DNA of 15,804 nucleotides, taken from the UHGV virus genome UHGV-0259225; one strand, written 5' to 3'. This DNA comes from a virus. Every line of letters starts with the position of its first letter. Position 1 is the first letter of the stretch. The notes under the pieces are model-generated. The model did no database searches, was not told where the DNA came from, and saw only the letters and a list, made by a program, of their open reading frames with translations. Shown piece after piece: positions 5,649 to 11,250 of the stretch. The position numbers and the translations under genes were made by a program.

Positions 5649-6839
5649 TTAATTGCTGTTAACCGAGGTGACCAGACTTGCCAGGTATCTTGAAGTAATA
5701 CGCTGGCGTAGGGTCAGGTTTTCGAGAGGAGGCACCGGTGTATAGTCGTAGTCGATATACAGTTTTCCGGCCTTGAGGGTTTCCGCATCGTTGGCTTCTT
5801 CACTGAACCAGCATGTGCCATCCACGATATAACCGTTGTTTTTCAGTTCGCGGAATTTGGCATTGATGCCATCAATGATGTCGCGAATCAGCGTTGCGGT
5901 GATGGGCTTATCAATAGCCCACATGTGCGCCTCAGCCATCGTGTCGGCCAGTACCTGCGCGGTACGTGTGTAGCTTTCAAAGAGGAAAAGTGGGTCATCG
6001 GAGCAGGTACGGTTACCCCAGAAACGGAAACCGTCGCGGCGAACCAGCGTTGTGACGCCTGCCTCGTTCAGCAGGTCAGCATCAGTGCCAGACTTCTGCA
6101 AATCCCAGAATACAGATGCGCTGATGCCGGTAACACCGTTTACCCCGACGTTGGACAGCGTTTTATGCCAGCCCTGCTCCTGGTCGATTTTGGCACGCAG
6201 CCCCAGCGCACGGGCGGTGGCATACGCGGTGGCGGTGGTACTGGTGACCGTATCCCATGCAAGGAAATCCGGCCAGATGACCATCAGCTCACGCTGACTG
6301 AAATTCTGACGGTAGGCTTTTGCCTCGGAAATGGTTTTACAGCCCCATGCGCTGATATACCCGAAGGCATTCAGTTCCTGGCATACCGATGCCAGTGCAA
6401 CCGCCACCTCTTTGGTGTCCAGTCCCGGTACGCCGAGAATGCGCGGTTTAACGCCGGTAACCGACTCTGCGCCCATCAGGGCTTTCAGTCCGGTGTACTG
6501 ACCGTTTTCGTCAGTGGTGCCGATGATATTGGAAACGGTCTGCGCGAGTTTCGTTTCTTCGTCGTCGCCGGTGCCGTCTTCCACGCGCACGACAACGGTG
6601 ACCGGTTTTGACTGGTCAGCGATGGCCTGCAACGATGCCGCCAGCGTGCCTTTTTTACCGGCCTTTGCAATCGCGCTCTGCACATTGGTGATCAGCACCG
6701 GTTTATTGACGGGGAAGGTTTCCGCATCCGCATCGCTGGCCGTGCAGACCATGCCAACAATGGCGGTGGATACGGTGGAAATGACGCGGGTGCCGTCGTT
6801 AATCTCCAGCACCTGCACGCCGTGATGATAGTCACTCAT
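5649..6839 (-). CDS. FI: Major tail sheath protein FI, 396 aa
   Basis: 396 aa as P2 gpFI; first gene of the FI-FII-E-T-U-D operon; GGAG RBS 9 nt upstream. Confidence 0.9.
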   Translation of the reverse strand: MSDYHHGVQVLEINDGTRVISTVSTAIVGMVCTASDADAETFPVNKPVLITNVQSAIAKAGKKGTLAASLQAIADQSKPVTVVVRVEDGTGDDEETKLAQTVSNIIGTTDENGQYTGLKALMGAESVTGVKPRILGVPGLDTKEVAVALASVCQELNAFGYISAWGCKTISEAKAYRQNFSQRELMVIWPDFLAWDTVTSTTATAYATARALGLRAKIDQEQGWHKTLSNVGVNGVTGISASVFWDLQKSGTDADLLNEAGVTTLVRRDGFRFWGNRTCSDDPLFLFESYTRTAQVLADTMAEAHMWAIDKPITATLIRDIIDGINAKFRELKNNGYIVDGTCWFSEEANDAETLKAGKLYIDYDYTPVPPLENLTLRQRITSRYLASLVTSVNSN

Positions 6840-6930
6840 CCGTTTAACTCCGTGGTTAATGGGTGCAACTATTTTCTGTTGTGCAGAGCATGAGACGCTA
6901 TTTGACCTGGCTGGTCAGTGGATGAAACAA
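6840..6930 (-). promoter_or_regulatory. Expected location of the Ogr-dependent late promoter P_F; contains partial dyads (TGT-N12-ACG at 6880-6897; TGACC-N5-GGTCA at 6903-6917)
   Basis: Position is by synteny with P2 (P_F precedes FI). P2 late promoters carry a TGT-N12-ACA dyad near -55; only imperfect matches found here. Confidence 0.3.
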
Positions 6931-6963
6931 CAGATAAAGAAAAGGCGGGCAATTCGCCCGCCT
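6931..6963 (-). terminator. Rho-independent terminator on minus strand: stem aggcgggc/gcccgcct (6943-6950 / 6956-6963), loop aattc, followed on the minus strand by UUUUCUUUAUCUGUUGUUU
   Basis: Read directly. Ends the G/cargo transcript and insulates it from the FI operon. Confidence 0.7.
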
Positions 6964-7060
6964 GTCCTGATTTGAACTCACTCATTTTCCGACTGACAAT
7001 TTACATAGCCCAAAAGTTATCAAATCTGACGGTCTGCTTTGAACAAGAAGCGGACATTTG

Positions 7061-7087
7061 CCTGTCAGGGTATATGCCGCTCTGCGG
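7061..7087. repeat. Left copy of an imperfect inverted repeat flanking the cargo cassette (CCTGTCAGG-gtatat-GCCGCTCTG)
   Basis: Partner at 7911-7928 reads CAGAGCGG-CCTGTCAG on the plus strand, i.e. the reverse complement with a 6-7 nt deletion and one mismatch. Confidence 0.35.
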
Positions 7088-7168
7088 TTATTATCCAGAA
7101 TCAATAATTCATCTGAGTTGGATTACATATAAAACATAGTTACCCCATGAATAACCATTAGCAGATTA

Positions 7169-7762
7169 TCAATTATGTAAATCTTTTATTTTATGTTCTT
7201 TGGCGTGTTGTGACAACAAATGGCTATAGCGTTTAAGCAAAATATTAGAAAGATTAAGCTCATTCATGAAGTGTTCTTCTAATAAGTAACCATCAATATC
7301 AACTTTAATATCATTACCACTTTTCATCTTCTGTAACGTAGATTTTACACGCTCCAGCAGGATGCTTTGCTCATGGTAATAGTCCATAAGAAGAGTAACA
7401 TCCTCTTTATCAAGCTTACTTAATTCGCTGAAGTAGGATTTAAACACTTTATCACTCTGGTTTAATGCAATCTGTAAGCGAGGCCCCCCTAATGATTTGA
7501 CATTAATGGCAAAAGGCTCGCCAACAAAATGCTCCGAATTTTCGTCAAAGCCAATATATCTCGTTTTATCAAGAAAAGTGAGAGCGCGATGGTTATTAGC
7601 GATTTCATATGCAAACATTGTTCTGATACTGTCCCTCTCAGCCTCCATGCTTATATCATCACGATGATTTGTATAAAATATATTTCCAACAAAGAGAACC
7701 ATAGCAAGAATCACTGAACTTGCCTCCCAGTTAATATTTTTTAATCGTCGCTTAGTAAACAT
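7169..7762 (-). CDS. Hypothetical membrane-anchored protein (197 aa), AT-rich cargo gene at the Z/fun-equivalent position; candidate phage-exclusion/defence protein
   Basis: Intact ORF with AAGGTG RBS; N-terminal KRRLK followed by hydrophobic segment SSVILAMVLFVGNIFY (one predicted TM helix), then a charged, likely helical domain. GC content visibly lower (mid-30s % by eye) than flanking tail genes (>50%). No motif I can assign. Confidence 0.75.
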   Translation of the reverse strand: MFTKRRLKNINWEASSVILAMVLFVGNIFYTNHRDDISMEAERDSIRTMFAYEIANNHRALTFLDKTRYIGFDENSEHFVGEPFAINVKSLGGPRLQIALNQSDKVFKSYFSELSKLDKEDVTLLMDYYHEQSILLERVKSTLQKMKSGNDIKVDIDGYLLEEHFMNELNLSNILLKRYSHLLSQHAKEHKIKDLHN

Positions 7763-7983
7763 ACCGCACCTTAATTATCAAAAATATTCCTTCAGTGTTA
7801 TCTGGTTAGCCTAAACCAAGTCATTAAAGTCTGCAGGATATCATATACATAAAATGTATTGATTAGAATTTGCACTAATAAAATAATGCTTTACTAAAAT
7901 CTACTCCAGACACAGAGCGGCCTGTCAGATTAGGCTTTACTCTGTGCCATAGATACGTTTGCTCACTCCAGAGATCATACAAC
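7763..7983 (-). promoter_or_regulatory. AT-rich 220-bp region upstream of the cargo gene; probable autonomous promoter region
   Basis: No ORF; strongly AT-rich with several TATA-like hexamers (e.g. TATGAT, TATATG on minus strand). No confident -35/-10 pair assigned. Confidence 0.3.
7911..7928. repeat. Right copy of the imperfect inverted repeat flanking the cargo cassette
   Basis: See 7061-7087. Confidence 0.35.
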
Positions 7984-8511
7984 TTATTGCGGCATTTCCG
8001 GCCATTCAGGATTTGCAGGATCCACACGACTGACCAGAACGCTGTAACGCTCCCATGCATCCAGTCGGCTACGCTCCTCATCTGTTGCCATGTTCAGTCT
8101 GACCGCGCGCTCCAGCGGCAAAATCACGGATTCAGCTTCGGAAAGTAAAGTTGCCTTTTGTGATTCTGCCAGTTGCTGCTGTTCGTCTGCCGTATAAATC
8201 CGCTTAATCACGGCACCATCCTTAAACATCCATTTACCTGAGTCATCAGCACGTCGGTTAGCGGTAATATCAGGAACCTCGACAACGCTAAAACCTTCAG
8301 GATGAAGCGTTGAAGCATCTCTGGTGATGGCGACAATAATATTATTCTCGTCGTAAACAATTTTTATTGTGTCTGGCTGAAAATTACTTACTTCCTCATA
8401 CCAGTTTTTTCCGTCTTCGGACCATAACCAGATAACATCAAAATTCTTTGTTAGCTGATATTGTTCTTTTGTTTTTGGATTACCTGACTTAATGTTTTTT
8501 AAATGCTGCAT
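7984..8511 (-). CDS. G: Tail fibre assembly protein G (Tfa-type chaperone), 175 aa
   Basis: 175 aa as P2 gpG; immediately downstream of H. The 5' third of the gene is markedly AT-rich. Confidence 0.85.
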
Positions 8512-8514
8512 AAT

Positions 8515-11250
8515 TTACACCTGCGCAACGTTATACCATGTGCCATTGATGTATTTTTGTATTGGTCTGAATACTGCGGGGTCATCACCATCGACTTCAC
8601 CGACAATACCAAGCCCCGTGATTACATGGCCTGATTTTTCATACATCACGCCTTTTTGCATGGTCTGAACAACACGTGTGCCAAGTCTGACATCTCTCAC
8701 ATAGCGGGAATCAAAGTTACCGTAATCCGAGGGATTAACACGCCCCGTAATATTTATGGTTTTATTACTTTGAATACTTCCCGAGACAAAGCGCATAATA
8801 TGGACGCTATTAGCATAAACATCCAGATTACCATCACCATTTTGTTTAAAGCCCGTGTCATTATCACCCAAAACAATCGAATTACCGCCAAGAGCACTGG
8901 ATGTTCCTATACCCAGAGCACCATTCAATTGACCACCAGATAACGGCAGTGCACCGACATCTCCCGCTGTAGGTTTTCGCGTTGTGGTATAAAACTCAGA
9001 CCAGTCAGCCTCGAATCCGTAACCGTCACGAGCAGAACGATAAAAAATACCGCCGTTCTTATAATTAACGCGGAACTGGGCGGCGGGACAACTTCCTTCA
9101 CCGATATTAAAATGAAGAATTAACGTTGATGCCCCACCAGTAGTTGCGTTATAGGCTCCGCTACTCCAGTTCCACCCAACGGCTTTATCATTCGCAACGG
9201 TGTCTCCTGTTTTTCCTGAAGCAAATGCACCAATATTTTTCGGCGTCAGGTTAATATCTGATGTTCCATCAAACGAAACGTTATTAATTTTACGGGCTGT
9301 TTTCAGCTTTGTTGCTGTCGCCGCATTGCCGGACAGTTCACCAGAAAGGCCAGCACTGAATGTCTGTTTCGCGCCCCATGTCTGGGCTTCGTCAATGATT
9401 GGTACTCGTCTTGCTGTGATCGTGCGGCTTCCCGGATTTCCTGAAATACGCACCATAAAAAATCGGTAGTTCGCTTTACTTACAGTGCTGCGCCATACAT
9501 GCATTGAGCGCCCCGTACCGGAATCATCACTCGGACCAACTGCGATGTTTATCAGGTTGCCATCAATGACGCCCCAGTCCATACCGTCGGGAATATTGGT
9601 CATATTATCCAGCCTAACGGCTATCAGACTGCCCGGCACAAAATCGTAGCTCTGCCAGTCCAGACTGGATAGTTTTGCCACTGCGCCACCGATGCCCAGA
9701 TTCAGAGGCAACGAAAAGGAGTTATATACTTCTCGCCATTCGGTCCATTTTCTCCCGGCATAGACGCGCTCAAAAGTGCGCCCCTGTGTGGTTTCTGATT
9801 TCCCTGTGGTTGTGTAACGCTGCCAGACAGATACACCATCAAAACGCCTGATTACTTCCAGTATTCCAAGCAGTGTCGCTCCAGCGGTATCCTGCATTGG
9901 ACCGTTTGACGCCTTCCCTGTAACGCTGTAAATGCCTGGCGAAGTCAGATCATTCAAATCACCTTCGTAATAACGACATTCTGACTGATGGCCTACTCTT
10001 GACCACGGCTCCCACTGTGGGTTCTGTGCATTCCATGTAGCAGAAAGGCAGCGAACATATACGTTCCCACGGCGGGTCGTATAGCGTTGCGTGCGTGAGT
10101 ACCCACCACCCTCAAGAACTTCAAGGAATCCCTGACCATAACTTCCTTCTTCCGGATAGTTGCGGTCAAATGAAGCGATAGAGCCACTACTGTTTCGCCA
10201 TAAACCAAGATGCTCTGCGCCTCCTAGCGTGTTCAGGTCAATAGTTGTGCTCAGGGGGCGTGTTGCAGACTGAATCTGACGCCAGTAGCTCCACGGACCG
10301 TCTGAGCCATTCCAGGTGCCAGAAAGATTACGCATATAAACATTGCCAGTTCTGGTGGTATAACGCTGCATTCCGGAAAAATTACCGCCATTGAATACCT
10401 CAAGAACACCGACTGCACCGTCTTCAGGGAAATTTTTCTCCAGTGTTGCGTTGGAGGATGTGGATTTATACCAGACACCCACATAAGCCTTAACTGGACC
10501 AAATGTATTGAGATCAGCATCAACCGGCATTTCGCCGTTGTTTTTCATAAACGTCAGGCTGGTAACACCAATATTGTCCAGAAAAGCTGATTTATCCTGG
10601 ATATCTGCACCGTTCTGATTTTTCGCCAGACGTGAATTTGCGTTGTCATTTGCTGCCTTGACCGCTTTTGGCGTTGCCGCCAGCTCTTCACTGGTGCTGT
10701 TTGTTGCACTGCTTAACTGAGTAAAACCTTTTTCTGTCAGCGTGGCGTCAGGATGGCGGCGGGACTGCTCATGCTCTGCGATTTTGTCATCGACGTAATC
10801 CTGCGTCGCCATCACTGTGCTGGCATCAATACTCAGCTCAACGGACGCCACGTTGCTGAGAATAATAACCATGCGGCAGGTCTGCGCACGTCCGGAGCCT
10901 TCAGCCAGTTCTGGCTTATAGCTTTCTGCCATGTTGGACACCGCAATCAGTGTTCCGGCATCGTCATACAGACCAAGTTCACGCATCCAGAAGCCGCCCA
11001 CTTCTGGCGGTACAACCAGTTCAGCCACGATATAGTTTTTATTCTTGTTATCCACGCTGACTTTATTCAGAGCGTGACGCCAGACCTCATGCACCAGTTT
11101 CGTCTGACCGGCATCCGGCACCGGCAATTTGCCATTACCGTCACCCACGGCCATTGCAGACAGGTTTACTTTTTTCCCGCCGGGGACAGTGGCGGCTGCC
11201 AGCTTTGCGGCTCCGGCAGTAGTGATAACGGTTTTAAATTTCGTGCTCAT
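8515..11250 (-). CDS. H: Tail fibre protein H, 911 aa (P2-like N-terminus, expanded repeat-containing shaft, divergent C-terminal receptor-binding region)
   Basis: N-terminal ~230 aa match recalled P2 gpH (MSTKFKTVITTAGAAKLAAATVPGG...); located between I and G. Confidence 0.9.
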   Translation of the reverse strand: MSTKFKTVITTAGAAKLAAATVPGGKKVNLSAMAVGDGNGKLPVPDAGQTKLVHEVWRHALNKVSVDNKNKNYIVAELVVPPEVGGFWMRELGLYDDAGTLIAVSNMAESYKPELAEGSGRAQTCRMVIILSNVASVELSIDASTVMATQDYVDDKIAEHEQSRRHPDATLTEKGFTQLSSATNSTSEELAATPKAVKAANDNANSRLAKNQNGADIQDKSAFLDNIGVTSLTFMKNNGEMPVDADLNTFGPVKAYVGVWYKSTSSNATLEKNFPEDGAVGVLEVFNGGNFSGMQRYTTRTGNVYMRNLSGTWNGSDGPWSYWRQIQSATRPLSTTIDLNTLGGAEHLGLWRNSSGSIASFDRNYPEEGSYGQGFLEVLEGGGYSRTQRYTTRRGNVYVRCLSATWNAQNPQWEPWSRVGHQSECRYYEGDLNDLTSPGIYSVTGKASNGPMQDTAGATLLGILEVIRRFDGVSVWQRYTTTGKSETTQGRTFERVYAGRKWTEWREVYNSFSLPLNLGIGGAVAKLSSLDWQSYDFVPGSLIAVRLDNMTNIPDGMDWGVIDGNLINIAVGPSDDSGTGRSMHVWRSTVSKANYRFFMVRISGNPGSRTITARRVPIIDEAQTWGAKQTFSAGLSGELSGNAATATKLKTARKINNVSFDGTSDINLTPKNIGAFASGKTGDTVANDKAVGWNWSSGAYNATTGGASTLILHFNIGEGSCPAAQFRVNYKNGGIFYRSARDGYGFEADWSEFYTTTRKPTAGDVGALPLSGGQLNGALGIGTSSALGGNSIVLGDNDTGFKQNGDGNLDVYANSVHIMRFVSGSIQSNKTINITGRVNPSDYGNFDSRYVRDVRLGTRVVQTMQKGVMYEKSGHVITGLGIVGEVDGDDPAVFRPIQKYINGTWYNVAQV
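9721..10518 (-). repeat. Three tandem diverged ~280-bp (~93-aa) repeats inside H (protein residues ~245-337, 338-430, 431-510)
   Basis: Each unit starts DLN(T/D)(F/L) and contains FPEDG/YPEEG ... LEV ... QRYTT(R/T) ... GNVY(M/V)R ... W; DNA copies are diverged but recognisable (e.g. cctcaagaac near 10110 and 10390). Confidence 0.7.

What the first reader, a model, noticed from the sequence alone, without database searches (positions are those of the whole stretch)
7169..7762. AT-rich, membrane-anchored orphan gene at the Z/fun position: candidate single-gene anti-phage / exclusion system
A compositionally foreign gene (mid-30s % GC by eye, against >50% for the tail genes) sits between tail-fibre assembly gene G and sheath gene FI. 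In P2 this slot holds Z/fun, which excludes phage T5, and P2 carries other exclusion genes (tin, old) at comparable variable slots. The ORF is intact, has its own RBS (AAGGTG), a 220-bp AT-rich upstream region and a strong intrinsic terminator downstream (6931-6963), so it looks like an autonomous cassette that could be expressed in the lysogen. The protein has a positively charged N-terminus, one TM helix (residues ~15-31, DNA ~7670-7720) and a ~165-aa charged domain with no catalytic motif I recognise. That architecture fits a membrane-acting exclusion or abortive-infection protein.
Basis: partly seen in the sequence, partly recalled or inferred. Interest (0 to 1): 0.85.

Follow-up and report, generated by a model that had tools for sequence, protein, structure and literature searches.

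The report
Uncharacterised membrane cargo gene, P2 phage
This is a real, intact, foreign-looking gene in the known variable cargo slot of a P2-like prophage. It encodes a small inner-membrane protein of unknown function that most plausibly keeps other phages out, but nobody has shown this and the only indirect experiments saw no effect.

Summary
ORF 7169-7762 (-) is intact, 197 aa and 35% GC, against 53% for the window. It lies between tail-fibre assembly gene G and sheath gene FI, where P2 carries Z/fun.

The protein matches no Pfam, NCBIfam or PADLOC model, and matches only PHROG 3829 (unknown function). A confident AlphaFold model (pLDDT 85) shows an N-terminal transmembrane helix running into a generic four-helix bundle. 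Charge distribution across the family predicts that the bundle faces the periplasm.

The family is tiny, 29 representatives among 1.84 billion proteins, and all identified hosts are Enterobacterales. It is under purifying selection and always sits alone in cargo slots of mobile elements. Three copies lie next to known defence genes.

It is not a homologue of Fun(Z), T4 Imm or Sp, P22 SieA, HK97 gp15 or Sie2009. The RefSeq name "lysogenic conversion protein" is positional.

My best guess is an envelope-level superinfection-exclusion protein (confidence about 0.4).

Against: two phages used by Rousset et al. 2022 (P2_AC1, P2_SIDE7) carry this gene. Their lysogens were reported with no protection attributable to it against eight phages. 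T5 was not tested.

The hotspot idea itself is already published. The terminator belongs to the phage backbone, not the cassette. Interest is moderate.

The parts
7169..7762 (-). Coding sequence of the 197-aa cargo protein (PHROG 3829; RefSeq 'lysogenic conversion protein' WP_215258574.1)
   Evidence: ORF list and translation. 100% nucleotide match to an annotated CDS in E. coli EC18. dN/dS is 0.04-0.15 against homologues from other genera.
7670..7726 (-). Transmembrane helix (residues 13-31). It is unusually conserved (N11 W12 E13 A14 S16 V17 A20 M21 F24 are invariant among close homologues).
   Evidence: Hydropathy and charge analysis of 29 family members. Alignment A1. The AlphaFold model has a continuous helix 12-66.
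7172..7669 (-). Predicted periplasmic domain (residues 32-197): an up-down four-helix bundle with a 25-residue loop. The family signature R47, A51, E53, I54, N57 lies on the helix just outside the membrane.
7767..7772 (-). Shine-Dalgarno-like AAGGTG, 4 nt upstream of the ATG
   Evidence: Sequence. The block TTTTTGATAATTAAGG(A/T)G is conserved upstream of homologues in a Pantoea island and an Enterobacter plasmid.
7055..7910 (.). Variable insert (cargo cassette), 856 bp, 34% GC. It consists of 148 bp upstream non-coding, the ORF, and 114 bp downstream non-coding.
   Evidence: Borders come from comparison with phage Wphi, which shares only 6839-7054 and 7911-7989. The same flank-only matches occur in about 800 E. 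coli genomes and about 54 phage records.
7763..7910 (-). AT-rich upstream non-coding part of the cassette; a promoter is presumed but not demonstrated
   Evidence: Partly conserved at the DNA level with the upstream regions in Pantoea (L008) and the Enterobacter plasmid (L007), so it travels with the ORF. No convincing sigma-70 match. No TGT-N12-ACA late-activator box.
7911..7983 (-). Conserved backbone just downstream of G. It contains a weak hairpin and the G-proximal arm (7913-7931) of the inverted repeat that brackets the slot.
   Evidence: It corresponds to the 'left inverted repeat' annotated in GenBank AJ512685 and AJ512677.
7023..7041 (.). FI-proximal arm of the slot-bracketing inverted repeat (15 of 19 bases complementary to 7913-7931)
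   Evidence: It is conserved in Wphi with different cargo. It corresponds to the 'right inverted repeat' in AJ512685 and AJ512677.
6933..6963 (-). Intrinsic terminator (9-bp stem, 7 G-C pairs, T run). It belongs to the backbone, not the cassette, and is the first strong terminator downstream of G.
   Evidence: It lies immediately upstream of the region aligned to the P2 pF activator site.
6863..6932 (-). pF late promoter region of the FI operon (approximate). The end of the activator site maps to about 6907 and the transcription start to about 6863-6865.
   Evidence: Mapped by alignment to the annotated P2 features. The start of the activator site fell in an alignment gap.
7984..8511 (-). Gene G, tail-fibre assembly protein (upstream neighbour)
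   Evidence: PF02413, E=3e-35
5649..6839 (-). Gene FI, tail sheath (downstream neighbour)
   Evidence: PF04984, PF17482, PF22671

Best explanation
The feature is a horizontally mobile single-gene cargo cassette in the G-FI (Z/fun) slot of a P2-like prophage.

Its product is a single-pass inner-membrane protein. About 12 basic residues sit in the cytoplasm. One highly conserved transmembrane helix follows, and a roughly 165-residue four-helix bundle projects into the periplasm.

The most likely role is superinfection exclusion at the envelope. In this model the protein sits where incoming phage DNA and tape-measure or ejection proteins must cross the inner membrane. It blocks genome entry of a restricted set of competing phages, or possibly other mobile DNA, either directly or by occupying a host inner-membrane factor.

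Shown:
- the gene is real and under selection;
- it is foreign in composition;
- its slot and its mobility among elements;
- the predicted fold;
- the lack of homology to anything characterised.

Inferred:
- the topology, from the positive-inside rule only;
- expression in the lysogen;
- the exclusion activity and its target.
For: Gene and selection:
- dN/dS is 0.04-0.15 between genera.
- The gene is intact in 201 of the 203 E. coli genomes that carry it.

Topology and fold:
- Every family member has one hydrophobic segment. The N-terminus is basic (K+R 2-8 against D+E 0-2) and the next 20 residues are neutral or acidic.
- Five distant members have exactly two Cys in the C-domain. In three of them these form a C-terminal CxxxxC pair, as expected for a periplasmic disulphide.
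- The confident model shows the transmembrane helix continuous with helix 1 of a four-helix bundle. This is the layout of periplasmic chemoreceptor sensor domains.

Genomic placement:
- It is always a lone gene in cargo slots. These are the P2 tail hotspot (201 E. coli genomes) and the P4-like primase-att slot in Pantoea and Kosakonia. The latter is a known minor defence hotspot (PMC13586616).
- Other sites are a lambdoid prophage end directly upstream of a complete type II restriction-modification system and an IncFII plasmid beside a PIN toxin-antitoxin pair.
- It is also found in an ICE or plasmid transfer-gene region and 3 kb from a SIR2-HerA system in Dickeya.
- Further copies lie beside a putAbiC protein in Proteus and inside the tail module of an unrelated siphovirus prophage.

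Analogy:
- The architecture matches lactococcal Sie2009 (173 aa, basic N-terminus, one transmembrane helix, external domain).
- The placement matches the HK97 gp15 moron inside a tail operon.
Against: - No homology to any tested exclusion protein (hhalign probability at most 1.3%).
- No PHROG annotated as exclusion and no PADLOC model matches.
- Phages P2_AC1 (94% aa identity) and P2_SIDE7 (98.5%) carry the gene. Rousset et al. tested E. coli C lysogens of their four P2-like isolates against lambda, T4, P1, 186cIts, CLB_P2, LF82_P8, AL505_P2 and T7. They reported protection only for AC1. The cloned TIR system from the other hotspot reproduced that protection (PMC9122126).
- No promoter has been demonstrated, so expression in the lysogen is unproven.
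- The slot is mixed-purpose: neaT in CFT073 is a virulence-linked acyltransferase (PMC3573123).
- A four-helix bundle carries no functional information.
- Topology is predicted, not measured.
Confidence: 0.4

Rival explanations
1. Non-defence lysogenic conversion. The periplasm-facing membrane protein changes an envelope property of the host, such as surface polysaccharide processing, stress tolerance, serum or phagocyte resistance, or colonisation. The prophage would benefit through host fitness rather than through phage exclusion.
For: - The same slot holds neaT, an acyltransferase that promotes bloodstream fitness of CFT073 (PMC3573123).
- The slot is described as mixed-purpose (bioRxiv 10.1101/2024.10.15.618418).
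- No anti-phage phenotype was reported for lysogens carrying the gene.
- Many carriers are extraintestinal, avian-pathogenic or urinary isolates.
Against: - There is no enzyme domain, and no similarity to O-antigen modification or chain-length proteins in Pfam or NCBIfam.
- Relatives occur in plant-associated Pantoea, Dickeya, Pectobacterium and Kosakonia, so a function specific to an animal host is unlikely.
- Repeated placement in defence hotspots and next to restriction-modification, SIR2-HerA and putAbiC genes.
Confidence: 0.22
2. Abortive-infection or membrane-disrupting effector. The conserved polar transmembrane helix oligomerises into a pore when the periplasmic bundle senses envelope damage caused by phage entry. 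The infected cell is depolarised and killed.
For: - The transmembrane segment is unusually conserved, with polar residues (N11, E13, S16, N27), more than simple anchoring needs.
- Single-pass membrane proteins serve as effectors in many defence systems (PMC9122126).
- A Proteus relative lies next to a putAbiC-domain protein.
Against: - It is always a single gene without a sensor partner.
- Only about 12 residues are predicted in the cytoplasm, where most phage triggers appear.
- No PADLOC match.
- Stable carriage in 3.7% of E. coli genomes, with no adjacent antitoxin-like gene.
Confidence: 0.13
3. Lytic-cycle accessory of the phage itself. The gene is co-transcribed with the late V-W-J-I-H-G operon. 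It acts late in infection, for example to keep progeny or superinfecting particles from wasting DNA on a lysing cell, or to tune lysis timing as a periplasmic antiholin-like sensor does.
For: - It runs in the same direction as the tail genes.
- There is no strong terminator between the G stop codon and the ORF. The first strong terminator is at 6933-6963, downstream of the ORF.
- In P2 the annotated V-operon terminator lies inside the variable region next to fun(Z), so read-through from G into the cargo is expected.
- The architecture resembles T4 RI and Sp-type periplasmic regulators in outline.
Against: - The same family occurs in elements with no late tail operon: P4-like satellites, a plasmid, an ICE and chromosomal islets. 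In the Pectobacterium prophage it is antisense to the tail genes.
- It is absent from about 80% of closely related P2-like prophages, so it is dispensable.
- No similarity to T4 Sp.
Confidence: 0.1
4. Orphan immunity or entry-exclusion factor against something other than phage. It could protect the inner membrane or periplasm from a tailocin, colicin or type VI effector, or exclude conjugative DNA.
For: - The protein is anchored in the inner membrane and faces the periplasm, the usual place for such immunity proteins.
- One relative sits among conjugative transfer genes. Another lies about 4 kb from an Rhs toxin-immunity cluster.
Against: - No cognate toxin is adjacent in any of the loci examined.
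- No similarity to known immunity or TraS/Eex families in Pfam.
- Most copies are in phages and satellites.
Confidence: 0.07

Closest known systems
P2 Fun(Z) (NP_046777.1), the T5-blocking cargo at the same slot
   Same: Same genomic slot between G and FI. Both are non-essential, AT-rich and horizontally acquired. Both carry the label 'lysogenic conversion'.
   Different: Fun(Z) is 528 aa, encoded on the opposite strand, and begins with no basic N-terminus and hydrophobic segment like that of the 197-aa protein. There is no sequence relationship (hhalign probability 0.07%). Fun(Z) has an experimental phenotype (blocks T5, per the P2 record). This gene has none.
Lactococcal Sie2009 (Tuc2009 orf2) and related Gram-positive superinfection-exclusion proteins
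   Same: Prophage-encoded single gene. Similar size (173 against 197 aa). Basic N-terminus, one transmembrane helix, and the rest predicted outside the membrane.
   Different: No detectable homology (hhalign probability 0.1%). Different host envelope. Sie2009 lies in the lysogeny module next to the repressor, not among tail genes. No function has been demonstrated for the gene studied here.
HK97 gp15 moron (superinfection exclusion)
   Same: Cargo gene embedded in a tail operon and running in the same direction as it, followed by a terminator. It is an inner-membrane protein.
   Different: gp15 is 62 aa with no large external domain. There is no homology (probability 0.4%). Here the terminator belongs to the backbone.
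T4 Imm and Sp, P22 SieA
   Same: Envelope-located exclusion proteins encoded by phages.
   Different: No homology (probabilities 1.3%, 0.0% and 0.7%). They have different sizes and topologies.
Four-helix-bundle periplasmic sensor domains of chemoreceptors and histidine kinases (4HB_MCP type; PDB 6db1, 6s18, 9kup, 1lih, 8wdf)
Other Z-region ORFs of P2-like coliphages (Nilsson and Haggard-Ljungquist; GenBank AJ512676-AJ512685) and Wphi orf44
   Same: Same slot, bracketed by the same inverted repeats. They are annotated 'putative lysogenic conversion protein' on position alone.
   Different: The proteins are unrelated (Wphi gp44 hhalign probability 0.1%). None of the records of this series held in the phage collection encodes this ORF: tblastn found it in only 13 phage records, none of them from this series.

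Membership tests
P2 Fun(Z) | Sequence homology to the 528-aa Fun(Z) protein | tested here: not met
   hhalign of family profile A2 against Fun(Z): probability 0.07%, E=0.68
P2 Fun(Z) | Blocks growth of phage T5 when expressed | not testable with these tools
   Needs plaque assays. T5 was not in the Rousset et al. panel.
Moron (autonomous cargo transcription unit in a phage genome) | Present in some but not all closely related phages, between conserved genes, with deviant base composition | tested here: met
   The cassette is in 201 of 1020 E. coli genomes that share the flanks, and in 13 of 67 phage records. GC is 0.34 against 0.53.
Moron (autonomous cargo transcription unit in a phage genome) | Own promoter | tested here: inconclusive
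   Promoter-like sites are no more frequent than in shuffles. However, the upstream 150 bp is partly conserved with homologues in other elements.
Moron (autonomous cargo transcription unit in a phage genome) | Own terminator | tested here: not met
   The only strong terminator (6933-6963) lies in backbone sequence shared with phages that carry other cargo.
Superinfection-exclusion proteins (functional class) | Encoded by a temperate phage or other mobile element and dispensable for its propagation | tested here: met
   Present in plaque-forming isolates and absent from close relatives
Superinfection-exclusion proteins (functional class) | Located in the cell envelope, facing outward | tested here: inconclusive
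   A single transmembrane segment and the positive-inside rule predict N-in, C-out in all 29 members. This is a prediction only, with no fusion data.
Superinfection-exclusion proteins (functional class) | Homology to a characterised member (Sie2009, HK97 gp15, T4 Imm, T4 Sp, P22 SieA) | tested here: not met
   hhalign probabilities 0.0-1.3%. No annotated PHROG matches at E<=1.
Superinfection-exclusion proteins (functional class) | Blocks DNA entry of a superinfecting phage without blocking adsorption | not testable with these tools
   Published lysogen assays with carriers AC1 and SIDE7 reported no effect attributable to this gene on eight phages (PMC9122126).
Known anti-phage defence systems (PADLOC-DB v2.0.0) | Match to any defence protein model | tested here: not met
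   0 families at E<=10
Abortive-infection membrane effectors | Partner sensor gene or cytoplasmic sensing domain | tested here: not met
   A lone gene in all 12 loci examined. Only about 12 residues are predicted to be cytoplasmic.
4HB_MCP periplasmic sensor domain | Profile match to the Pfam family, and a second transmembrane helix plus a signalling module | tested here: not met

The most novel reading that the evidence does not exclude
The protein founds a previously unrecognised family of envelope-acting exclusion factors: a single-pass inner-membrane protein with a periplasmic four-helix bundle. The family circulates as a one-gene cassette among P2-like phages, P4-like satellites, lambdoid and siphovirus prophages, ICEs and plasmids of Enterobacterales. 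It would block genome entry of a narrow set of competitors not covered by standard panels, for example T5-like or heteroimmune temperate phages. It might do so through its conserved transmembrane helix binding a host inner-membrane entry factor.
Probability: 0.33. Interest if true: 0.55.

Novelty: new member of a known kind. Interest (0 to 1): 0.4.

Why it matters
If the protein is an exclusion factor, it would add a new structural type to the few known Gram-negative superinfection-exclusion proteins. It is also common enough to shape phage susceptibility and phage-therapy outcomes in clinical and avian-pathogenic strains, being present in 3.7% of complete E. coli genomes and about 20% of prophages that share this backbone.

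[quoted passage not shown] These elements are reported to exchange defence genes almost never (PMC13586616).

The broader idea, that the P2 Z/fun slot is a cargo and defence hotspot, is already established. The gain would therefore be one more uncharacterised cargo family with a testable hypothesis, not a new principle.

Tried and rejected
- Pfam, NCBIfam and PADLOC on the protein, and Pfam on all 29 aligned members, found nothing.
- PHROGs matched only family 3829, of unknown function.
- The profile search against PDB sequences found nothing, best E=0.17.
- The first AlphaFold run, using close homologues only, was poor (pLDDT 64). It was replaced by a run with distant members (pLDDT 85).
- Foldseek against BFVD gave no hit at E<0.001. 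The best hits include an uncharacterised ORF of the P2-like Haemophilus phage HP1 at TM 0.34, which is too weak to use.
- The afdb50 library was unavailable.
- Homology to Fun(Z), Wphi gp44, HK97 gp15, Sie2009, T4 Sp, T4 Imm and P22 SieA is rejected.
- Rfam found nothing meaningful in the non-coding parts.
- There is no Ogr-type TGT-N12-ACA box upstream of the ORF.
- Literature searches for the accessions and the PHROG id found no paper. The accessions are absent from the DefensePredictor supplements.
- Brenes and Laub 2025, on prophage defences against temperate phages, could not be read. It may contain a relevant test.
- No sequenced phage record shows the two conserved flanks adjacent, that is an empty site or a cargo short enough for both flanks to be joined in one match.
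- The genome-contig scan with the wide alignment failed. With the narrow alignment it gave only two loci.

Full report
**What is in the sequence.** The window is the tail and late region of a P2-like (Peduovirus) prophage, with all genes on the minus strand. In E. coli EC18 the region around the ORF (6840-7990) is 100% identical to the window. The annotated gene order there is tape measure, E/E', tube, sheath, "lysogenic conversion protein", tail-fibre assembly, tail fibre.

ORF 7169-7762 (-) is intact and encodes 197 aa. G (7984-8511, PF02413) lies upstream and FI (5649-6839, sheath domains) lies downstream. The ORF is 35.0% GC, against 52.9% for the window and 55.8% for FI. AAGGTG lies 4 nt before the ATG.

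**Extent of the foreign DNA.** Comparison with phage Wphi, which carries a different gene here, shows shared sequence only at 6839-7054 and 7911-7989. The insert is therefore 7055-7910, 856 bp at 34% GC.

The hairpin terminator at 6933-6963 lies in the shared backbone. It sits immediately upstream of the region that aligns with the P2 pF activator site and transcription start. It is therefore not part of the cassette.

No strong terminator lies between G and the ORF. In P2 the V-operon terminator is annotated inside the variable region. Late read-through from G into this gene is therefore likely.

An independent promoter is not demonstrated. Sigma-70-like sites are no more frequent than in shuffles, and there is no late-activator box. 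However, the 150 bp upstream is partly conserved with homologues in a Pantoea island and an Enterobacter plasmid, so it travels with the gene.

**Distribution.**
- The cassette occurs in 13 phage records, all P2-like. These include the isolates P24B2, P24E6b, P22H1, D8, 12W, PhiR44_1, P2_SIDE7 and P2_AC1.
- It occurs in 203 of 5,426 complete E. coli genomes, always chromosomal and at least 95% identical.
- The number of genomes with near-full coverage is 201 both for the ORF alone and for the ORF with its phage flanks. So in E. coli it sits essentially always in this slot.
- That is about 20% of the 1,020 genomes that share the flanks.
- Beyond E. coli the family is very small. There are 38 clusters at 90% identity among 5.8 billion proteins and 29 representatives among 1.84 billion. 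Every member with a named host is from Enterobacterales: Pantoea, Kosakonia, Pluralibacter, Salmonella, Enterobacter, Proteus, Dickeya and Pectobacterium.
- dN/dS between genera is 0.04-0.15, so it is a real protein under purifying selection.

**The protein.** It has no Pfam, NCBIfam or PADLOC match. It matches only PHROG 3829, of unknown function. No other family member matches Pfam either. A profile search of PDB sequences found nothing.

With a diverse alignment, AlphaFold gives a confident model (pLDDT 85.3, pTM 0.73). It shows one long helix 12-66, which is the membrane segment 13-31 continuing into helix 1. A 25-residue loop follows, then helices 92-100, 105-116, 119-148 and 151-178, forming an up-down four-helix bundle.

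All 29 aligned members have one hydrophobic segment, a basic N-terminus and a neutral or acidic stretch after it. By the positive-inside rule, the bundle faces the periplasm. Five distant members have exactly two cysteines in the C-domain, three of them as a C-terminal CxxxxC pair. This fits an oxidising compartment.

The membrane helix itself is unusually conserved (N11 W12 E13 A14 S16 V17 A20 M21 F24). The only positions conserved across the whole family are R47, N57 and L117, plus the nearly invariant S16, A51, E53, I54 and Y129. R47 to N57 lie on the helix just outside the membrane. This suggests a specific interaction at or in the membrane.

**Genomic company.** The family is always a lone gene in cargo positions:
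- P4-like satellites of Pantoea ananatis and Kosakonia, directly after the primase. This slot was recently recognised as a minor P4 defence hotspot (PMC13586616).
- The end of a Salmonella lambdoid prophage, directly upstream of a complete type II restriction-modification pair (PADLOC E=3e-182 and 4e-178).
- An IncFII plasmid, next to IS91 and a PIN toxin pair.
- A Pantoea island.
- A Salmonella conjugative-transfer gene cluster.
- Dickeya zeae, 3 kb from a SIR2-HerA system.
- Proteus mirabilis, next to a putAbiC-domain protein and an HD protein.
- A Pectobacterium siphovirus prophage, between tail genes on the opposite strand.

This pattern is typical of genes involved in conflicts between mobile elements. 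It is my main argument for a defence or exclusion role.

**Mechanism.** With only about 12 residues in the cytoplasm and no partner gene, a classical abortive-infection sensor is unlikely. The architecture parallels lactococcal Sie2009, and the placement parallels the HK97 gp15 moron in a tail operon.

I therefore favour superinfection exclusion at the inner membrane or periplasm, with confidence about 0.4. This is an analogy of form only. Profile comparisons with Sie2009, gp15, T4 Imm and Sp, P22 SieA, Fun(Z) and Wphi gp44 are all negative.

**Evidence against.** P2_AC1 and P2_SIDE7 are two of the four P2-like phages isolated by Rousset et al. 2022. Both carry this gene, at 94% and 98.5% protein identity.

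Their E. coli C lysogens were challenged with lambda, T4, P1, 186cIts, CLB_P2, LF82_P8, AL505_P2 and T7. Only AC1 was reported to protect, against lambda and LF82_P8. The cloned TIR system from the other hotspot reproduced that phenotype. So no effect of this gene was seen on those eight phages. T5, the target of Fun(Z), was not tested.

The slot is also known to hold non-defence cargo such as neaT (PMC3573123).

**Relation to what is known.** The G-FI slot has been described as a horizontally acquired cargo site since the work of Nilsson and Haggard-Ljungquist. Their GenBank entries annotate left and right inverted repeats around every Z-region ORF and label the ORFs "putative lysogenic conversion protein". 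That probably explains the RefSeq name, which carries no functional evidence.

I recovered the core of those repeats independently, at 7913-7931 and 7023-7041. Recent surveys list the slot as a defence or mixed-purpose hotspot.

The specific 197-aa family is uncharacterised, and I found no paper on it.

**Verdict.** This is a genuine, moderately interesting candidate: a new member of a known kind, namely prophage cargo with probable exclusion function. It is not a new principle. Interest is 0.4.

Noticed in passing
window 7913-7931 and 7023-7041: An imperfect 19-nt inverted repeat (15/19) in the conserved backbone brackets the variable slot. The same pair is present in phage Wphi around different cargo. 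It corresponds to the 'left/right inverted repeat' annotated in GenBank AJ512685 and AJ512677. In a phage without cargo the two arms could pair as a hairpin, so cargo may have entered the loop of an ancestral terminator. No sequenced phage record showed the two flanks adjacent (an empty site).
   Followed up: partly
window 7060-7084 and 7913-7928: The FI-proximal end of the cassette carries a second partial copy of the G-proximal arm. There is a 9-nt direct repeat GCCTGTCAG (7060-7068 and 7920-7928) and a 9-nt inverted repeat GCCGCTCTG / CAGAGCGGC (7076-7084 and 7913-7921). This may be a footprint of the recombination that swapped the cargo, or it may be chance.
   Followed up: partly
L003 5001-5600, L009 5001-5591, L014 6001-6579: The same protein family (about 62% identity) sits directly after the primase gene of P4-like satellites in Pantoea and Kosakonia. 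[quoted passage not shown]
   Followed up: partly
window 7169-7762 against L011 1830-2423: Between the window allele and the P2_AC1 allele dN/dS is 0.78 (dN 0.028, dS 0.036), against 0.04-0.15 between genera. Several of the differences fall in the C-terminal tail. This could reflect relaxed or diversifying selection within E. coli, but the counts are small.
   Followed up: no
protein cluster of P0001 (members P0041, P0042): Truncated 99-aa forms of the protein are recorded on about 40 E. coli contigs, so some lineages carry a disrupted or shortened allele.
   Followed up: no
P0059, P0064, P0068 (distant family members): Three distant members end in a conserved CxxxxC pair, and five distant members have exactly two cysteines after the membrane segment. 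The E. coli-type proteins, including the window protein, mostly have none. This hints at a periplasmic disulphide in one branch.
   Followed up: no
window 7984-9300: Gene G (44% GC) and the 3' third of tail-fibre gene H (37-45% GC around 8250-9000) are also well below the 55-60% GC of the sheath and baseplate genes. This suggests the receptor-binding module next to the cargo slot is itself a swapped mosaic.
   Followed up: no
L028 6001-6582: In a Pectobacterium siphovirus-type prophage a distant family member lies antisense between a 726-aa protein (probably the tape measure) and a T5 pb9-like distal tail protein. This is a second, independent case of the family embedded in a tail module.
   Followed up: no
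BFVD hit P51700 (Haemophilus phage HP1): Among the best, though non-significant, structural neighbours is an uncharacterised 23-kDa ORF from the int-cI region of HP1, a P2-like phage (Foldseek E=0.13, TM 0.34). This is too weak to interpret.
   Followed up: no
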